41,987 bases of DNA, taken from a virus (lineage: Duplodnaviria > Heunggongvirae > Uroviricota > Caudoviricetes). Location: the IMG/VR virus record IMGVR_UViG_647533160_000006, positions 1 through 41,987 of that record. One strand, given 5' to 3'. Both the position numbers and the translations under genes were made by a program. The first letter of the stretch is position 1. Each line of letters opens with the position of its first letter. The notes under the pieces are model-generated. The model was not told where the DNA came from, ran no database searches, and saw only the letters and a program-made list of their open reading frames with translations. Below are positions 1,009 through 41,987 of this stretch, in pieces.

Positions 1009-1083
1009 GTCCTCTTAGTTAAATGGATATAACGAGCCCCTCCTAAGGGCTAATTGCAGGTTCGATTCCTGCAGGGGACACCA
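1009..1083 (+). tRNA. argW: tRNA-Arg (anticodon CCU)
   Basis: 75-nt sequence GTCCTCTTAGTT...GCAGGTTCGATTCCTGCAGGGGACACCA; acceptor stem pairs, anticodon loop CTCCTAA, T-loop GGTTCGATTCC, encoded CCA end. Confidence 0.9.
1069..1083 (+). other. attL core (prophage left junction inside argW 3' end)
   Basis: 15-bp CTGCAGGGGACACCA at the 3' end of argW is repeated exactly at 40284-40298; integrase gene follows ~160 bp downstream. Confidence 0.6.
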
Positions 1084-2402: not shown

Positions 2403-2512
2403 TCCACCTTAACCACTATCGAAGTGCACAAAGCCTTGCAATTAAGTGCAAAGCTTTGTATATGCACCTTAGCTTATTTATATAAAATAAATTAATATCA
2501 AAGATATCCTTA

Positions 2513-4819
2513 CTAAGGACTTATTGCCCCAAATGCTTTGAATATTGCACCTTCCCCTTCTCCAGAAGATGTGCATACAAAACCAATGTGACCACCTGGC
2601 GAAGGATTTTTGAAAAATAAAACATCTCCTCTAACCCAATATCCAGTTTTTGGCAACTGTGTTACAGAAAATATTCTTTGATACCCTGCTACATTCTGCG
2701 ATTCATACAAATATGAATCCGTCCCTAAAGAAAGGAATTGTTTTGCCCCTACAGAAGATTTGGCATCACTATCAACAAGGCGACCCGCCCTTCCCCCTGA
2801 ATTTATTAATGGATACAACCAAAGTATGGTGTCTTTCTCTTGCCCAACCCCTGATATTGCTGCATTTTTTATAGATGCATTTTCAATTCCAGACACACCT
2901 ATATATGCTCGTTGCGAATCGGTACCGTTACCTATTGTCCTATTTATTAATTCAAAATTTTCTATCTTTACTGGATTTTCAAAATTAAGTATTTTTATAC
3001 CATTTGTTGCGGCAAACGTGATATCTCCGTTAACAGTGACAGTCAGGCCATCTATTACAGCTTCATATATTGAACCTATTGTTCCTCTTCCAGGCTTGAA
3101 CCCGGATGATATGATATTACATTCACTGAATGTTAATCTAATTATTTTAGAACTATCAAAATGGGTGCCATTTGATGCGTTCGTTAAAGAACCGTCTGGC
3201 TTGGTATCATAATGATTACATCTTATCAGTTTTGCAGCTCTTAAGTCGACTGAATGATCAAAGAACTCATTTCTGTGCTCTCCAATCAACCCTCTAAAAG
3301 TGCAATCAATGTATTTTAAATTAGGTGTATTTGATTTGCATGTTATGTTGAAAGAATTTGAAAGATATGAGTTTACCACCTTAATGTCATTAACTGGATT
3401 CGATTGAGTCCTATAGATGCTAAATGAAGAGAATTTTGCTTCATTTGCAGTAACTCCTTCAAGTACTACATTTGAAATTTTGCGTACTTCTGACTCTATG
3501 GCAAAGTTATGTCCAGGTGAACTTGATATACTACCAAGCCCGGAGTTATAGGCGTCGCCACTAATATAAATATTGTCTCCGCCAGCAACAACAAAAGCTG
3601 AACGCCCCATTTTGTTAATAGAGAAATTAGTAACTCGTGAATAACAATCATCTCCATTCAATCCTGCTAAATAAATAGCATCCATTGCTCCGTCATATGC
3701 TGTATAATGTGCATCAAATATCAAAACCTTATGATCAATAAACCAAAATCCATATTCTGGACATTGATATCCAGAATCCCCGAACTCCCCGCCTAATATT
3801 ACACTCTTTCCATTGAAATCAATATTAACTCTTCCTGAGATGGAAATAATTGGACAGCCATTAAACCCAAATAAAATACCTCTATTTGCACGATAGTCAA
3901 AATTTGTTTGAATTGTTTTAATTGGGAGGCCAGTTACCGGATCAAATGACCCAACCCGCAATCCATCTGAGAAAATAAAATTGCTATCATTAAATTCATA
4001 CCGCAGTGGATAATTGAAATTTCTTACTGTACATTTCTGGTTTGGTATATAAGACCCGCCAAATCCTGTCGCACCTGAAAGATACTGGCTTCCAACATAA
4101 AAATCTCCTTTTGGAAAAATTACCCTCACAGGCCCACTTCTTGTTTCAATATATCTCGCAAGCCTTTCAAGAATTTCATCATTTTTTGCACCATCATTAC
4201 TTTCATGTAACTTAAATGGTTCTATTCCTACATATATTGTTTCTTCTTTTATAAAAGAAACAGGCTCCCATAATGAAGGTTCTGGGTAACTCCCAGGAGG
4301 GACAAGAACATTATCTAATCCTTTCCTTGTATAAACTTTACCTTCTTTAAGAAAAAGCCCTGCCTGTCTCCTGTCGTCAATTGTAAATCCTGACTCAAAT
4401 GTTCCTATTAGATTAATACCATAGCTATTAGATAGCTCTTTCCAAATATTAAAAAGATTATGCTCCACCTGTTTCCGTAACTGATCAGGATCATACTTCA
4501 GCACATTCGGAAAATAGAACTGCTGCGCCCCATATGCATCGTACACAGCCATAGAATGACCTTGCACAGTTACGAACTTGGCAATCTGTCCGTTATATAC
4601 CGGATATCCGGCAGCGTTAATGATGATTGGTTGCGAAACGGGAACGTGAGAACCGTCTTCGTTCTCCACATAAACCTGAATCTGGTTTTCAGGATTTACC
4701 GGATCAGTGTCAATTTTACCGATATAAATTTTGCCATTGGCTACGGCTTTAAAAGAACGAGCCATAGTGAAGAGTTGCGAAGGCATAGATACAATCACAT
4801 TGGCTGTAATGTCTGTCAT
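2513..4819 (-). CDS. Tailspike protein (P22 gp9-like N-terminal head-binding domain, divergent receptor-binding region)
   Basis: 768 aa; first ~110 aa ([43 protein letters not shown]...VLKYDPDQ) match the recalled P22 tailspike head-binding domain; the remainder is not recognisably P22, Sf6 or HK620. Confidence 0.85.
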
Positions 4820-4877: not shown

Positions 4878-4900
4878 AAAAAAACCCAGCCGAAGCTGGG
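4878..4900 (-). terminator. Rho-independent terminator between ant and tailspike gene
   Basis: Minus-strand read CCCAGC-TTCG-GCTGGG followed by TTTTTTTAT. Confidence 0.7.
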
Positions 4901-4919
4901 TCGTTGCGTTGGTTATCTG

Positions 4920-5798
4920 TCAGTAGTTATGTACTGAAGGAGGTAATTCTTTATTCTTAAGTCTCATCCATGCGGAAAGATTCGTTGGTCCTTCTGGCTC
5001 ATTGATATCAACATCTCGTGTGTGATTGATTAAAACGTCCCTCGCCATTCCGATAACATACGAGAACTCATGACCGTAGTCGTAGCATCTGCCGGAATAG
5101 TTCGATTGAATTTGTTTTAATGCCGGATACAGTTCGCGGAATAATGCCTGTGAGCGGTTGGCATAATCCCATAACCATACAAGGCTGTTTGCTTCTTTTG
5201 CAGAAAGCTCGTTGGTTTTCTTCTCTTGTTTGCCGATAAACTCGCCTTCAAGCACTACCCTGTGGATGTACTCTACGGCCAGCGGGATTTGTTCAATTGA
5301 AAGTTCATCAATGCTGTCAATACCAAAACGCTGATGAACCATATTGTATGCATCGTCATAGCGAAGTCCTTTCTTTCCTACCAGCATGTTTACTGCATCG
5401 CGTAGCGGCGTTCTTTCCTCAACAGTGGTTTTCTTGCCTTTCACATACTCGCCATGTTTGCGAATTGAAGGTAGAACTTCTGCTGTTACCCACTTGCGGA
5501 ATTTGTGCGGGACCGAACCTTTATTGACAGCATCGCGGCAGCGCAGAACCAATGTATACATACCTGATTCGCTAACAATGCTTAGATTCTGCTCACCACC
5601 AAGGGTGTAACTTAAAGTTACTCCCTTTTCATCGTCATCAAGTGCAGTAAGCGCCTTGCGTGAGTTAGTCAGGGTTAAAGCATCACAAACATCTTTTGCT
5701 ACAAACCACGGATCACCGCATTTGTTGATGACGCGGATTTCACTGTCGCCGAATTTGAAGATGGTGAAATCGTTTTGTGCCTTTGCTATACTTTTCAT
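4920..5798 (-). CDS. ant: Phage antirepressor Ant (BRO-N / KilA-type)
   Basis: Motif [29 protein letters not shown] typical of Bro-N antirepressors; lies downstream of arc as in P22 immI; start chosen at internal Met (MKSIAKAQ) leaving a 68-nt arc-ant spacer; ORF is open up to 5864. Confidence 0.75.
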
Positions 5799-5866
5799 GT
5801 CAATATTTCCTAATCCGATTTGTTGATACCGAAGCCCTGACTGTTCCCGCAGTTGGGGCTTCAACT

Positions 5867-6370: not shown

Positions 6371-6388
6371 AGGTGGGTCCTATTTATT
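6356..6388. terminator. Bidirectional hairpin terminator (mnt 3' end / lipoprotein gene 3' end)
   Basis: ACCCACC-TGAA-GGTGGGT flanked by an A-run on one side and CCTATTTATT on the other; convergent genes end here. Confidence 0.65.
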
Positions 6389-6806
6389 AGTCTTGCTTTG
6401 TTGATGGTATAAGAGATGCGTTTGCCTCTTTTGGCTTCAAGGTATACATCCCACCATTAAAAGGATCTACAGCAAGCCAACCAATTAACCCACCAAACAC
6501 AAGGTTTCCACCAATATACCAACCATTAGCATTGGCTTTGATTGGCAGGGTAACTGGTTCGTACCCATCCTTTTCCATAGTGATCTGGTAGCTCTTTTTG
6601 CCAAAATAACTACCATCTGACTTGGCAAGAGTTACTCCTTGCGGGGTCTTGCCTTGCGCAACAATCACGCCTGATTCGTCTTTTACTTTAAAGCTCGCAC
6701 CGGAAGGATTGCTGTTCACTTGCACGAGCTGTGTTTCGTCACCAACAATAGTTGCGCACCCAGATAACAATATAGCGCCAGCAACAACGCCGATAATCCT
6801 CTTCAT
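6387..6806 (-). CDS. Putative lipoprotein with PEGA-like domain (accessory gene in sieA slot)
   Basis: Signal peptide plus lipobox MKRIIGVVAGAILLSGC; PEGA-like pattern SNPSGA...GKTP...KDGYEP; C-terminal Gly-rich hydrophobic segment; sits between gp16 and mnt. Confidence 0.6.
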   Translation of the reverse strand: MKRIIGVVAGAILLSGCATIVGDETQLVQVNSNPSGASFKVKDESGVIVAQGKTPQGVTLAKSDGSYFGKKSYQITMEKDGYEPVTLPIKANANGWYIGGNLVFGGLIGWLAVDPFNGGMYTLKPKEANASLIPSTKQD

Positions 6807-6924
6807 ATCAATTTCCATATTTGAAAAAACCGGAAACATCCTAATGACAAACCATTCAAATGTGAAGTAGGCAAAAGATGTTTACTTTTTTCATGGTATC
6901 CTGCGAAAAACTAAGGAGGTTGGT

Positions 6925-7254
6925 GTGTTAGAAATAGTCGTACTCGCTCTTGGGATATCCTGTTGCGTACTATATGCAGGGTTAGCTGCCCTCAAGAAAC
7001 AGGTTAAGGAATTAGATCGCTCACATGAAATTGATACAAAAATTGCGCGATTAACAGAAGAGAATAAACACTTAAAAAATTCCATAAGGGCACTAACTGA
7101 TGACAACTACAAACTGTCCCATGCATTGGCTAAGTGGGAAATAGTAAGTTATGAAAGAATGACCGACATGATTTTTTCGTCTTATATGGCTACAAAATCT
7201 CCTGAAACATCAGGAAAAGCAATAATTGCAGCCATTGAAAAGAGAATTAAATAG
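6925..7254 (+). CDS. Small membrane-anchored coiled-coil protein (accessory gene in sieA slot)
   Basis: GTG start 5 nt after AGGAGG; N-terminal TM helix (LEIVVLALGISCCVLYAGLAAL) then heptad-like charged helix; divergent from the lipoprotein gene. Confidence 0.6.
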   Translation: MLEIVVLALGISCCVLYAGLAALKKQVKELDRSHEIDTKIARLTEENKHLKNSIRALTDDNYKLSHALAKWEIVSYERMTDMIFSSYMATKSPETSGKAIIAAIEKRIK

Positions 7255-12535: not shown

Positions 12536-13953
12536 TACTCAATCCTTATCTGGCAGCCTGACAGAGTGACAGGTGACTTCGTGATAACGCGCAATTTGAA
12601 GCCGACATTTTTCCTGATGCGCCCGACTCGCTTCCACAAAACACGTTTGTCATAAACGAACGGTTCATTCTGCTCAATCATCTGCTCACGTCCGTAATTG
12701 ATGCCGTCAGTGGTTGCAGACAGAAACAGGCGGTCAGCGTACTGCGCAACACCCGTCGATGATTCCACCTCCAGATCAAAGCATCTGGCGTTATCTGCTT
12801 TGAAGAGTGGAGTAAACAGCAGGTGTTCCTGTTGCTTGTCGTACTGGCTGCTGATGTCGAATTGCAGTTTCCCGGTAACAGATTCCAGCTTATCGCCGCA
12901 CGTTATCTGATTGCCTTCGTAAATGAAGTCGATAGCGCGGTACACATCGTCATACAGGCCTGTTTTCAGTACACACCATTGCGGACCATTGGCGCTTGAA
13001 GATGCGTCGTACACCAGAACATGGCGCGGAAGATGGATAATCAGCAGCTCATGCGCATCAAATCGCAGAGACTCCATCACGCCATCAGCCAGTTCATCAG
13101 CAGTGTAGGAGCGGAGTATTTTCTCAATGCTCGCGCTGGCGATTGGTGATACCTGACCGGAGCCGATGATGTATACAGACGGCGCGCCTGTTGCCGGATT
13201 GCTGATAAACGCATAGGAATCAGCAAACGGAGTTTTGCAGTAAGTCCCGGCGATGCCTTTTTGCACCATCAGCGATGGCTGTGCGACATACAAAGCAGCA
13301 CCAACTGTGGTTGCACCAGTCAGGGAGAAATATTCAATCGTCGATGAACCAAAGCAGACGATGAAGTCTCGCCATGTTCCGATGCCGATAATACCGTCAG
13401 GCTGAGACTCGGCACGATATTGTGCACTGTATCGGTCAGGGTGCGATTCGTCTTCAAGGTCAGTGATAAACCATGAATCAGTTCCGTCTTTTGACCACGC
13501 ATAACGCCCACGTAAGCGCGTAATGTCGCGAACTGAACCTAACTCGTACTGTGTGAATCCGCTGTCTGTAGGCCAGTTTGAGACGGTTTTAACCGTGCCA
13601 TCATAGCGATACTCGACCAGTTGACCATTAACACCTACAGCCTGAGATGTCCGACCATGCGCCATTGATACGCGACCACTTCCGGCGACGTCACCGACTT
13701 CGCTTTCGCCTTTGTAAAGCTTCCCACCACACACGCGATAAACAGCATTCTGCGCCATGTTGTACTCGACTCCGCGCGATACACCGTTTACATCAGAGCG
13801 TTTGGCAATGCCCGGGAATGAGCGAAGATATCCGCTGCTGTTAAGGATTTCTTTGGGTGTAGCCAACATATTCACTGGTAGATAGTCGATATAGTCGGCA
13901 TTTCGGAAGTCTTTGCCGACACCTTTCATGAGCGGAAGTTGCTGAATCGGCAT
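12535..13953 (-). CDS. Tail accessory / head completion protein, P22 gp10-like
   Basis: 472 aa (P22 gp10 is 472 aa), position between gp4 and needle. Confidence 0.8.
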
Positions 13954-14430
13954 TATTCGCTCCCGTTATCGCAAGGTTCCTTTCGGTGGAAGTAATTCCA
14001 ACCGTTCCACTTCGCCAACTGGTTACCGCTACCAACAGGCATACGGTTTGGATAACCGGACTTACATTTAGCGGCTTTTGCTCTGTCCATTGCAGACAGT
14101 TTGACGAGTCGCTCTTTCCCGTATCTGGCAGTGGTTATAAGTTTTGCAGGCGCTTCCAGCGCATAATCCGGTGCAATGCGGCAGGCAAGGTTGAAAATGA
14201 CAGCATTGATAGCGTTATTTGATAAACCGTGCTCATCGCCAGGATCTGGAGCGACATCTGCATCAGCAAAAATGTAGCCAACGTTGATACCAGGTGACAC
14301 ATCACCGCCAAGCCATTCAGCCATCATCATTTCAAGGTCATTGACGCCGTCTTCCATGGACTGCGGTTCGACATCGGTTAACGTGGCATTTGATGCCACA
14401 CCGAGCTTACGTAATGCCGCAAGGACTAAA

Positions 14431-14453
<23 letters not shown>
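13953..14453 (-). CDS. Head completion / tail adaptor protein, P22 gp4-like
   Basis: From internal Met [33 protein letters not shown], matching recalled P22 gp4; the track ORF is extended upstream through the repeat. Confidence 0.8.
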
Positions 14454-14691
<238 letters not shown>

Positions 14692-40210: not shown

Positions 40211-40283
40211 AATAGCGGGTAAAATATTTCTCACATATAAAAAACACCATTCCAATCAATCCCCTGCCTCGTCAAGTAGATGT

Positions 40284-40298
40284 CTGCAGGGGACACCA
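40284..40298 (+). other. attR core (displaced copy of argW 3' end)
   Basis: CTGCAGGGGACACCA identical to argW positions 1069-1083. Confidence 0.6.
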
Positions 40299-40739: not shown

Positions 40740-41987
40740 CTATATTGCTGAAGGTACAGGCGTTTCCATAACTATTTGCTCGCGTTTTTTACTCAGGAAG
40801 AAAATGCCAAATAGCAACATCAGGCAGACAATACCCGAAATTGCGAAGAAAACTGTCTGGTAGCCTGCGTGGTCAAAGAGTATCCCAGTCGGCGTTGAAA
40901 GCAGCACAATCCCAAGCGAACTGGCAATTTGAAAACCAATCAGAAAGATCGTCGACGACAGGCGCTTATCAAAGTTTGCCACGCTGTATTTGAAGACGGA
41001 TATGACACAAAGTGGAACCTCAATGGCATGTAACAGCTTCACTAATGAAATAATCCAGGGGTTAACGAACAGCGCGCAGGAAAGGATACGCAACGCCATA
41101 ATCACAACACCGATAAGTAATGCATTTTTTGGCCCTACCCGATTCACAAAGAAAGGAATAATCGCCATGCACAGCGCTTCGAGTACCACCTGGAATGAGT
41201 TGAGATAACCATACAGGCGCGTTCCTACATCGTGTGATTCGAATAAACCTGCATAAAAGACAGGAAAGAGTTGTTGATCAAAAATGTTATAGAAAGACCA
41301 CGTCCCCACAATAAATATGACAAAAACCCAGAAGTTTCGATCCTTGAAAACTGCGATAAAATCCTCTTTTTTTACTCCTCCCGCATCCGCCGCTATGCAC
41401 TGGTGATCCTTATCTTTAAAACGCATGTTGATCATCATAAATACAGCGCCAAATAGCGAGACCAACCAGAAGTTGATATGGGGACTGATACTAAAAAATA
41501 TACCGGCAAAGAACGCGCCAATAGCATAGCCAAAAGATCCCCAAGCGCGCGCTGTTCCATATTCGAAATGAAAATTTCGCGCCATTTTTTCAGTGAAGCT
41601 GTCAAGCAAACCGCAGCCCGCCAGATAACCCAGGCCAAAAAAGAGCGCACCCAGAATTAAACCTACAGAAAAATTGCTTTGCAGTAACGGTTCATAAACG
41701 TAAATCATAAACGGTCCGGTCAAGACCAGGATGAAACTCATACACCAGATGAGCGGTTTCTTTAGACCGAGTTTATCCTGAACGATGCCGTAGAACATCA
41801 TAAATAGAATGCTGGTAAACTGGTTGACCGAATAAAGTGTACCTAATTCCGTCCCTGTCAACCCTAGATGTCCTTTCAGCCAAATAGCGTATAACGACCA
41901 CCACAGCGACCAGGAAATAAAAAAGAGAAATGAGTAACTGGATGCCAAACGATAGTACGCATTTCTGAATGGAATATTCAGTGCCAT
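40740..41987 (-). CDS. cscB: Sucrose:H+ symporter CscB (LacY-family MFS)
   Basis: 415-aa 12-TM protein, start codon at the window edge; MALNIPFRNAYYRLASSYSFLFFISWSLWWSLYAIWLKGH matches my recollection of CscB. Confidence 0.8.
   Translation of the reverse strand: MALNIPFRNAYYRLASSYSFLFFISWSLWWSLYAIWLKGHLGLTGTELGTLYSVNQFTSILFMMFYGIVQDKLGLKKPLIWCMSFILVLTGPFMIYVYEPLLQSNFSVGLILGALFFGLGYLAGCGLLDSFTEKMARNFHFEYGTARAWGSFGYAIGAFFAGIFFSISPHINFWLVSLFGAVFMMINMRFKDKDHQCIAADAGGVKKEDFIAVFKDRNFWVFVIFIVGTWSFYNIFDQQLFPVFYAGLFESHDVGTRLYGYLNSFQVVLEALCMAIIPFFVNRVGPKNALLIGVVIMALRILSCALFVNPWIISLVKLLHAIEVPLCVISVFKYSVANFDKRLSSTIFLIGFQIASSLGIVLLSTPTGILFDHAGYQTVFFAISGIVCLMLLFGIFFLSKKREQIVMETPVPSAI

What the first reader, a model, noticed from the sequence alone, without database searches (positions are those of the whole stretch)
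2513..4819. Tailspike with P22-type head-binding domain but unrecognised ~650-aa receptor-binding part
The first ~110 residues match the P22 gp9 N-terminal domain nearly residue for residue, but the protein is 768 aa and the rest does not resemble P22, Sf6 or HK620 tailspikes as I recall them. It probably encodes a distinct O-antigen or capsule depolymerase specificity.
Basis: partly seen in the sequence, partly recalled or inferred. Interest (0 to 1): 0.5.

Follow-up and report, generated by a model that had tools for sequence, protein, structure and literature searches.

The report
P22-type tailspike with uncharacterised depolymerase module
This is the tailspike gene of a complete P22-like prophage in E. 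coli: a standard head-binding anchor joined to a rare, uncharacterised sugar-cutting module, which is an ordinary kind of phage mosaicism but a receptor specificity nobody has yet tested.

Summary
Window 2513-4819 (minus strand) is an intact 768-aa ORF. Residues 1-113 are a full-length Pfam Head_binding domain: 76% identical to P22 gp9, 92% to Sf6 and 97.5% to CUS-3. Residues 114-768 match no Pfam, NCBIfam or PDB entry by single-sequence search, and only a weak C-terminal PHROG. No deposited phage exceeds 28% identity.

AlphaFold gives a right-handed beta-helix. It is remotely homologous to the Acinetobacter phage APK89 tailspike, a proven glycosidase. D334, D380, R406, E442 and E444 are conserved across that alignment.

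The module is a low-GC cassette (36% against 48%). It is bounded by the YDPDQ junction and a point about 54 nt past the stop codon. Related modules (44-65% identical) sit on other anchors in sipho- and myoviruses.

It occurs in 1 of 5,426 complete E. coli genomes. Both lysogens I could examine carry the O8 mannan cluster plus a rare O40 / S. dysenteriae 9 / K47-type locus. The rare glycan is the more likely receptor, but the two hosts look clonal.

Verdict: a real, probably functional tailspike depolymerase of untested specificity. It is a new member of a known kind, of moderate to low interest.

The parts
2513..4819 (-). Complete tailspike gene: 768 codons plus a TAG stop at 2513-2515. A GGAG Shine-Dalgarno sequence lies about 9 nt upstream of the ATG.
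   Evidence: The exact protein is EFF13660.1 / WP_000129898.1.
4481..4819 (-). Head-binding (particle-anchor) domain, aa 1-113.
   Evidence: PF09008 E 6.8e-67. PDB matches to Sf6 7sg7 and P22 2vky/1lkt. This part is present at 90-97% nt identity in 1,126 of 5,426 complete E. coli genomes.
4481..4495 (-). YDPDQ codons (aa 109-113), the 5' recombination junction of the cassette.
   Evidence: Nucleotide similarity to all other E. coli P22-like tailspike genes stops at gene nt 338-351. Homologues on other anchors begin to align at aa 114. CUS-3 annotates a 'boundary sequence' at this place.
2460..4480 (-). Low-GC exchangeable cassette: RBD coding sequence (aa 114-768) plus about 54 nt of 3' untranslated sequence.
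   Evidence: GC is 36.3% (GC3 23.8%) against 43.7% for the anchor and 47.7% for the rest of the prophage. Similarity to other intS prophages resumes at window ~2459.
4424..4489 (-). Predicted alpha-helical neck, aa 111-132.
   Evidence: AF2 secondary structure, helix H111-132. It aligns with the 'RE(A/L)WRRS..AG.NLV.GSFE.G' segment of spikes that carry Tail_spike_N anchors.
4232..4414 (-). Small beta domain, aa 136-196, between the neck and the beta-helix.
   Evidence: AF2 strands 136-196, pLDDT 72-88.
2840..4222 (-). Right-handed parallel beta-helix, aa ~200-660, with a capping helix at 210-225.
3488..3820 (-). Putative catalytic centre, aa 334-444: D334, D348, Q352, D380, Y383, R406, H437, E442, E444. 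The local motif is [12 protein letters not shown].
   Evidence: These residues are invariant or nearly so in alignments A1, A2 and A3, the last of which includes the proven glycosidase APK89_gp46. A profile of the family matches crAss001 gp22 (7qoj) over this same region, E 2.6e-14.
2516..2839 (-). C-terminal domain, aa 661-768, including the widely shared terminal motif G(D)..PG...GW.CT..G....A.FK.
   Evidence: AF2 gives lower confidence here (35-82). phrog_21471 matches the C-terminus at E 8.8e-6. The terminal ~60 aa recur in otherwise unrelated spikes.
4883..4902 (-). Terminator-like hairpin followed by a T-run, between the ant-like gene and the tailspike start.
   Evidence: the sequence is.

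Best explanation
The gene encodes the functional tailspike of a complete 39-kb P22-like (Lederbergvirus-type) prophage integrated at argW. Residues 1-113 are the conserved head-binding anchor that plugs the spike onto the tail. Residues 114-768 are a horizontally acquired cassette made of a helical neck, a small beta domain, a right-handed beta-helix and a C-terminal domain. By analogy with P22, Sf6 and HK620, it should form a trimer that binds and cleaves a host surface polysaccharide so the virion can reach the outer membrane.

The chemistry is most likely glycoside hydrolysis, using the conserved carboxylates D380, E442 and E444 with D334 and R406 nearby. This rests on homology to the proven endoglycosidase APK89_gp46.

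The receptor is most likely one of the two surface glycans encoded by its lysogens. I favour the rare O40 / Shigella dysenteriae type 9 / K47-type pyruvylated heteropolysaccharide over the common O8 polymannan.

Shown here: the domain architecture, the fold, the cassette boundaries, the rarity of the module, its remote homology and the host loci. Inferred: trimerisation, catalysis, the hydrolytic mechanism and the identity of the receptor.

My sub-probabilities are: tailspike depolymerase 0.9; hydrolase rather than lyase 0.65; receptor is the O40/K47-type glycan 0.5; receptor is O8 0.15. The overall confidence of 0.7 refers to the core claim: a functional P22-type tailspike carrying an exchangeable beta-helix depolymerase of a specificity not yet characterised.
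For: Anchor: PF09008, E 6.8e-67.

Genomic position: the gene follows P22 gp7/gp20/gp16, arc/mnt and an ant-like gene, and lies next to int and tRNA-Arg. att repeats at 1064-1083 and 40279-40298 delimit the prophage.

Homology: APK89 tailspike at 24.5% identity, E 1e-10, and Foldseek E 1.8e-17. That enzyme is a hydrolytic glycosidase (PMC8092837). D334, Q352, D380, Y383, R406, E442 and E444 are invariant across the alignment that includes it.

Intactness: 23 near-identical cluster members, most of them full-length 768-aa copies.

Module mobility: 44-65% identical RBDs sit on Tail_spike_N anchors in siphovirus-like, E217-like and T4-like phages. One of these is followed by an Acyl_transf_3/SGNH acyltransferase of the type phages use for O-antigen O-acetylation, then by int at argW.

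Composition: a sharp GC drop across the cassette.

Receptor: VCSW5 carries an O40-family wzy/wzx cluster with a pyruvyltransferase, plus an O8 cluster with no annotated defect. The window's genome encodes identical Wzy, GT4, pyruvyltransferase and WbdA proteins, under accessions EFF13352, EFF13351, EFF13349 and EFF13336. The O40-type wzy is in 8 of 5,426 genomes, O8 wzm-wzt in 308 of 5,426, and the RBD in 1 of 5,426. The locus proteins carry the S. dysenteriae names WffP and WffQ.
Against: No activity data exist for this protein or for any relative above 30% identity.

The two lysogens share identical O-locus alleles, so they probably represent one clonal lineage. The receptor inference therefore rests on a single independent observation.

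A lysogen need not display the receptor.

wzx of the O40-type locus is annotated as frameshifted in VCSW5, although the same annotation appears in AR_0369 and in NCTC9040.

The close subfamily has Ala where the wider family has a conserved Asp (A440, in the consensus motif PG...DIE.E).

The model is a monomer built from a 16-sequence alignment, with mean pLDDT 71.8. The anchor (aa 1-120) is below pLDDT 50, and parts of the C-terminal region (aa 670-675 and 687-713) are too.
Confidence: 0.7

Rival explanations
1. The module is an O8-specific endomannosidase that cuts the O8 polymannan, as was described biochemically for coliphage Omega-8 (my recollection; that phage has no sequence I could find).
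For: Both lysogens encode the O8 ABC-transporter mannan cluster, with no annotated defect in VCSW5. O8 would be the LPS O-antigen of these strains.
Against: O8 is common, at 308 of 5,426 complete genomes, yet the RBD occurs in only one of them. That one also carries the rare O40-type locus, found in 8 of 5,426. This gives a naive likelihood ratio of about 38:1 for the rare glycan. The O8-associated RBP subtype already proposed, G7C gp66-like and including a Lederbergvirus prophage (PMC10408124), is not homologous to this RBD. VCSW7, which is O8 with the same WbdA allele but an O155-type second locus, lacks the RBD.
Confidence: 0.15
2. The beta-helix is a polysaccharide lyase acting by beta-elimination at a uronic acid, not a hydrolase. 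Its target would be an acidic glycan such as a capsule or colanic acid.
Confidence: 0.2
3. The gene is a non-functional relic, or a binding-only fibre with no enzymatic role, in a decaying prophage.
For: No expression or activity data exist. The close subfamily has lost the Asp of the wider DIE.E motif.
Against: The ORF is intact and 99% conserved in VCSW5 and among the cluster members I compared. The prophage has a full P22-type morphogenesis, lysis, immunity and replication gene set, plus both att sites. The remaining catalytic-centre residues are invariant down to 20% identity.
Confidence: 0.05

Closest known systems
P22 gp9, Sf6 gp14, HK620 gp9 and CUS-3 tailspikes (Lederbergvirus tailspikes)
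   Same: The N-terminal head-binding domain (76-97.5% identity), the YDPDQ module junction, the gene position at the end of the late region next to int, and the overall plan of anchor plus beta-helix plus C-terminal domain.
Acinetobacter phage vB_AbaP_APK89 tailspike gp46 (K89 capsule glycosidase)
   Same: It is the closest experimentally characterised homologue: 24.5% identity over the catalytic half, E 1e-10, and Foldseek E 1.8e-17 with TM ~0.5. It shares the invariant residues D334, Q352, D380, Y383, R406, E442 and E444.
   Different: It has a different anchor (Friunavirus), host and substrate. The C-terminal third does not align. The identity is too low to transfer substrate specificity.
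Uncharacterised spikes with the same RBD family: P0002-P0014 (44-65% identity), Aeromonas phage phiARM81ld p16 (28%) and the Gamaleyavirus E20/F22 second spike (29%)
   Same: They are homologous over most or all of the RBD and keep the same conserved centre.
   Different: Their anchors differ (Tail_spike_N, P2 tail-collar and others) and they sit in sipho- and myovirus or N4-like genomes. None has a known receptor.
crAss001 tail fibre gp22 (PDB 7qoj)
   Same: It is the best solved-structure match to the family profile, E 2.6e-14, covering the GD.G.Q / DG.Y / N.RQG / PG..DIE.E rungs.
   Different: The match covers only about 150 residues. The depositors' name gives no function. It is not detectable with the single sequence.
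The O8-associated RBP subtype of Pas et al. 2023 (G7C gp66, MK-13 RBP1, prophage 90-1)
   Same: It is also linked to O8 hosts, and it too occurs on a Lederbergvirus anchor.
   Different: It is not homologous. G7C gp66 aligns only over the ~50-aa neck segment, at a pairwise E of 0.017.

Membership tests
P22-like (Lederbergvirus) tailspike | N-terminal Head_binding domain (PF09008) | tested here: met
   aa 1-113 against the full profile, E 6.8e-67. The PDB search matches the P22, Sf6 and CUS-3-type N-domains.
P22-like (Lederbergvirus) tailspike | Gene lies at the end of the virion module, after the ejection proteins and immI region and next to int/att | tested here: met
   The order is gp7, gp20 and gp16 homologues, arc/mnt, an ant-like gene, the tailspike, int, then tRNA-Arg.
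P22-like (Lederbergvirus) tailspike | Central right-handed parallel beta-helix | tested here: met
P22-like (Lederbergvirus) tailspike | Homotrimeric assembly | not testable with these tools
   Only a monomer could be modelled.
P22-like (Lederbergvirus) tailspike | Receptor-destroying activity on O-antigen or capsule | not testable with these tools
   This needs the purified protein and polysaccharide substrates.
P22 gp9, Sf6 gp14 and HK620 gp9 receptor-binding modules | Sequence homology of the RBD to one of these characterised modules | tested here: not met
   phmmer against the PDB matches only aa 1-127. tblastn against phages finds only N-terminal matches to these phages.
APK89_gp46-type beta-helix glycosidases | Significant sequence and fold similarity across the catalytic rungs, with conserved acidic residues | tested here: met
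   E 1e-10 at 24.5% identity. Foldseek E 1.8e-17. D334, D380, R406, E442 and E444 are invariant.
APK89_gp46-type beta-helix glycosidases | Hydrolytic cleavage of a glycosidic bond | not testable with these tools
   This is known for APK89_gp46 only (PMC8092837).
Beta-helix polysaccharide lyases and epimerases (AlgE4, K1 lyase, RbmB) | Fold similarity together with the lyase catalytic constellation | tested here: inconclusive
O8-specific RBP subtype (Pas et al. 2023) | At least 30% identity over the RBD to G7C gp66 or other subtype members | tested here: not met
   BLASTP against G7C gp66 gives only a 50-aa neck alignment, E 0.017.

The most novel reading that the evidence does not exclude
The cassette is the first identified depolymerase specific for the E. 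coli O40 / K47 (Shigella dysenteriae type 9-like) pyruvylated polysaccharide, which in O8 strains would be a second, K-antigen-like surface glycan (my reading of it as a group-4-type K antigen is from memory). It would then define a previously unnamed beta-helix glycosidase family (local motif [12 protein letters not shown]; wider family PG..DIE.E) that moves between podo-, sipho- and myovirus anchors.
Probability: 0.4. Interest if true: 0.4.

Novelty: new member of a known kind. Interest (0 to 1): 0.3.

Why it matters
Tailspike modules decide which serotypes a phage, or an engineered pyocin or tailocin, can attack. Each new module with a defined specificity becomes a typing reagent and a targeting part.

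This one is rare and matches no named protein family apart from a weak C-terminal PHROG hit. It is tied to an unusual host surface: O8 mannan plus an O40/K47-type glycan. It could therefore add a specificity for which no enzyme is known.

It is also a clean example of the YDPDQ junction being used to import a module from spikes that carry a different anchor. It does not change how tailspikes are understood to work.

Tried and rejected
1. Single-sequence searches of the RBD. Pfam, NCBIfam and the PDB gave nothing. PHROGs gave only a weak hit to the C-terminal 75 aa.

2. Foldseek against the PDB gave only generic beta-helix hits, with E 1e-5 to 1e-3 and low TM scores. These are not informative about specificity.

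3. Pattern scans for relatives in the GTDB species-representative genomes and in IMG/VR found no confirmed relative. The broader alignment A2 was too divergent for that tool.

4. I tested whether the RBD belongs to the published O8 subtype (G7C gp66). It does not.

5. A literature search for the accessions and for the strain name found nothing. The assignment of assembly GCA_000163195.1 to strain 'B354' is only my recollection and is not used as evidence.

The host O-locus was instead inferred from identical proteins whose accessions fall in the same EFF13xxx block.

7. I could not retrieve the O40/K47 structure paper (Zhao et al. 2007). The repeat-unit structure is therefore not asserted.

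8. I first read the 'frameshifted wzx' in VCSW5 as receptor loss. I dropped that reading because the same annotation appears in AR_0369 and in NCTC9040.

9. P0169 (784 aa) looked like the same RBD on another anchor. It is the same protein with a start codon called 16 aa further upstream.

Full report
**1. The observation**

Window 2513-4819 holds a single uninterrupted ORF of 768 codons on the minus strand, with ATG at 4819 and TAG at 2513-2515. A GGAG ribosome-binding site lies upstream.

Pfam's Head_binding model (PF09008) matches residues 1-113 end to end, E 6.8e-67. A search of all PDB chain sequences hits only residues 1-127. Those hits are the head-binding domains of Sf6 gp14 and P22 gp9, the head-binding parts of other P22-type spikes, and weakly WceF.

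Over the anchor, identity is 75.9% to P22 gp9 and 92% to Sf6, and 97.5% to CUS-3. Two refinements apply: the gene is on the minus strand, and the anchor is closest to the E. coli/Shigella versions rather than to P22 itself.

**2. Context**

The window is an E. coli chromosomal segment. It runs yfdC, tRNA-Arg(CCT) at 1009-1083, an IntS-type integrase, the tailspike, an ant-like Bro-N/P22AR_C gene, and arc/mnt. Then come P22 gp16/gp20/gp7 ejection proteins and the rest of a P22-type virion, lysis, immunity and replication set. It ends at a LacY-family permease gene.

A 20-nt repeat of the tRNA 3' end, at 1064-1083 and 40279-40298, delimits a 39.2-kb prophage. The exact protein is EFF13660.1 / WP_000129898.1 from assembly GCA_000163195.1, scaffold GG749328.1.

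The prophage looks complete, and the spike is 99% conserved in VCSW5 and in the members of its 23-sequence cluster that I compared. I see no sign of decay.

**3. The receptor-binding part**

Residues 114-768 match no Pfam, NCBIfam or PDB entry by single-sequence search. PHROGs gives only a weak hit to the C-terminal 75 aa. Among 50,697 deposited phage genomes the best RBD match is 28% identity, to the Aeromonas phage phiARM81ld 'tail-collar fiber'. Only 17 records match at all.

In a library of 1.84 billion cluster representatives, 401 proteins match at E<=1e-3 but only 13 at E<=1e-30.

An AlphaFold2 model built on 16 homologues has mean pLDDT 71.8. The anchor is unmodelled because the alignment is empty there. 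The model gives:
- a helix at 111-132;
- a small beta domain at 136-196;
- a capping helix at 210-225;
- a long right-handed beta-helix to about residue 660, with pLDDT mostly 80-97;
- a less confident C-terminal domain.

**4. Likely chemistry**

A profile of 32 family members matches the crAss001 tail fibre gp22 (7qoj) at E 2.6e-14. The match covers the rungs that carry the conserved motifs GD.G.Q, DG.Y, N.RQG and PG..DIE.E.

Against predicted viral structures, the model matches the tailspikes of Acinetobacter phages APK89 and IME546 at E ~1e-17 with TM ~0.5. tblastn gives 24.5% identity to APK89 at E 1e-10.

APK89_gp46 has been shown by NMR and MS of its products to be a glycosidase that cleaves K89 capsule hydrolytically, leaving GlcNAc at the reducing end (PMC8092837).

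I aligned the window RBD with close and distant homologues and with APK89_gp46. D334, Q352, D380, Y383, R406, N416, P435, E442 and E444 are invariant. They sit on successive rungs of the helix.

I therefore infer an endoglycosidase with a carboxylate-based centre. This is an inference from remote homology. A lyase mechanism is not excluded, because lyases and epimerases are the top structural neighbours.

One oddity remains. The close subfamily reads [10 protein letters not shown], with Ala and an extra His where the wider family has PG...DIE.E.

**5. Cassette anatomy and mobility**

Nucleotide similarity to the tailspike genes of 1,126 other complete E. coli genomes covers only gene positions 1 to about 345. 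It stops just after the YDPDQ codons. CUS-3's annotation marks a 'boundary sequence' at this position.

On the 3' side, similarity to other intS prophages resumes at window ~2459, which is 54 nt past the stop codon.

Between these points GC falls to 36.3% (GC3 23.8%). The anchor is 43.7% and the rest of the window 47.7%.

Homologues that are 44-65% identical over residues 114-768 carry different N-termini, mostly Pfam Tail_spike_N (TSP1/gp66 type). They sit in siphovirus-like temperate phages, an E217-like myovirus and a T4-like myovirus. More distant relatives use P2 tail-collar, Mtd_N or T7-fibre anchors.

The 65%-identical homologue, P0002, lies in a prophage that also uses argW in E. coli. 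It is followed by an Acyl_transf_3/SGNH acyltransferase. Phages typically carry that gene type for O-antigen O-acetylation and seroconversion, which points to a surface glycan as the receptor.

The neck segment of the cassette resembles the 'RELWRRS..AG..LV.GSFE.G' segment that ends the anchor region in G7C gp66-type spikes. This suggests the cassette was captured from such a spike. I could not check whether it corresponds to the recombination 'motif one' of Pas et al..

**6. Which receptor?**

The RBD occurs in only one of 5,426 complete E. coli genomes, strain VCSW5, at 98.6% nt identity and at the same argW site.

VCSW5 has two polysaccharide clusters near his:
- Between galF and gnd: an O40-family wzy/wzx cluster with three glycosyltransferases and a pyruvyltransferase.
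- Between gnd and his: the O8 mannan cluster (manC, manB, wzm, wzt, a methyltransferase and three glycosyltransferases including wbdC), with no annotated defect.

The window's own genome encodes proteins identical to VCSW5's Wzy (EFF13352.1), GT4 (EFF13351.1), pyruvyltransferase (EFF13349.1) and O8 WbdA (EFF13336.1). These accessions lie about 310-325 numbers before the tailspike's EFF13660.1, consistent with the ~360 kb between the O-antigen region and argW seen in VCSW5. Both lysogens therefore have the same dual surface-glycan genotype.

The locus proteins carry S. dysenteriae names, WffP and WffQ. The literature links the O40, S. dysenteriae type 9 and K47 polysaccharides structurally (title of Zhao et al. 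2007, cited in PMC7685785). From memory, not verified here, the K47 reference strain is an O8 strain.

The frequencies point to the rarer glycan. The O40-type wzy is in 8 of 5,426 complete genomes and O8 wzm-wzt in 308 of 5,426. A spike specific for common O8 would not be expected to be this rare, nor to sit precisely in a strain that also has the rare locus. The naive likelihood ratio is about 38:1 for the O40/K47-type glycan.

Three further observations bear on this:
- The O8-associated RBP subtype already proposed (G7C gp66-like; PMC10408124) is unrelated to this RBD.
- A soil isolate from the same study, VCSW7, is O8 with the same WbdA allele but an O155-type second locus, and it lacks the RBD.
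- The O40-type locus occurs both with the O8 cluster (AR_0369) and with no O8 genes visible in the 14 kb downstream that I fetched (NCTC9040).

The caveats are strong. The two lysogens share identical alleles and are probably one lineage, so this is one observation. Lysogeny does not prove receptor display. wzx is annotated as frameshifted, although it is annotated that way in all three O40-type genomes I inspected.

**7. Comparison and verdict**

In how it works and in its architecture, this is a P22-family tailspike. It meets every membership feature I could test: anchor, gene position and beta-helix.

It is not a member of the P22, Sf6, HK620 or CUS-3 RBD families. It is a remote member of the beta-helix glycosidase group that includes APK89_gp46.

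The modular exchange at YDPDQ, the compositional discontinuity and the sharing of RBDs across phage morphotypes are all well-known phenomena (for example PMC10408124). What is new is this particular module: it is rare, it belongs to no named family, and its substrate is untested. The candidate substrate I can name is the O40/K47-type glycan, at probability about 0.5.

I rate it a new member of a known kind, interest 0.3.

Noticed in passing
window 1009-1083, 1064-1083 and 40279-40298: tRNA-Arg(CCT) (argW) lies at 1009-1083. Its last 20 nt are repeated, 18 of 20 identical, at 40279-40298, giving attL and attR of a 39.2-kb P22-like prophage. The far flank (40740-41987, minus strand) is a 415-aa LacY-family sugar/H+ symporter. 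From memory, it is the size of the sucrose permease CscB.
   Followed up: partly
window 14501-14546: A perfect run of about eight copies of the hexanucleotide TCTGGC lies inside the ORF at 13953-14552 (minus strand), at the 5' extension of the gp4-like gene. It would encode a dipeptide repeat and could vary in length by slippage.
   Followed up: no
L005 (VCSW5 1830000-1879999); L016 (AR_0369); L015 (NCTC9040); L017 (VCSW7): O8 strains carry a second, variable Wzy-dependent cluster between galF and gnd: O40-type in VCSW5 and AR_0369, O155-type in VCSW7. The O40-type cluster contains the same ISAs1 remnants and a wzx annotated as 'frameshifted' in three different genomes. The frameshift call may therefore be a shared feature or an annotation artefact rather than strain-specific inactivation.
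   Followed up: partly
window 4920-5864 (minus strand) against L001 19022-19900: The ant-like Bro-N/P22AR_C gene just upstream of the tailspike is 314 aa here and 292 aa in VCSW5. The tailspike genes differ by 1.4% at nucleotide level, although the host O-locus proteins are identical. The two prophages are therefore not simple vertical copies.
   Followed up: no
window 6387-6839 (minus strand) and 6925-7254 (plus strand): Two small ORFs with no Pfam hit lie between the gp16 homologue and the arc/mnt genes, roughly where P22 carries sieA (from memory). RefSeq calls the VCSW5 counterpart of one of them a 'peptidase associated/transthyretin-like domain-containing protein'.
   Followed up: no
L002 7759-9630 (minus strand): The siphovirus-like argW prophage that carries the 65%-identical RBD (P0002) encodes a 623-aa Acyl_transf_3 plus SGNH protein directly downstream of its spike. 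This is a candidate O-antigen O-acetyltransferase for seroconversion of the same receptor.
   Followed up: partly
window 4424-4489 (aa 111-132): The neck of the cassette aligns with the 'RELWRRSLAEAGL.LV.GSFE.G' segment found at the anchor/RBD border of G7C gp66 and other Tail_spike_N spikes. It may correspond to the cross-genus recombination motif that Pas et al. reported as absent from Lederbergvirus prophages. I did not verify this against their sequence logos.
   Followed up: partly
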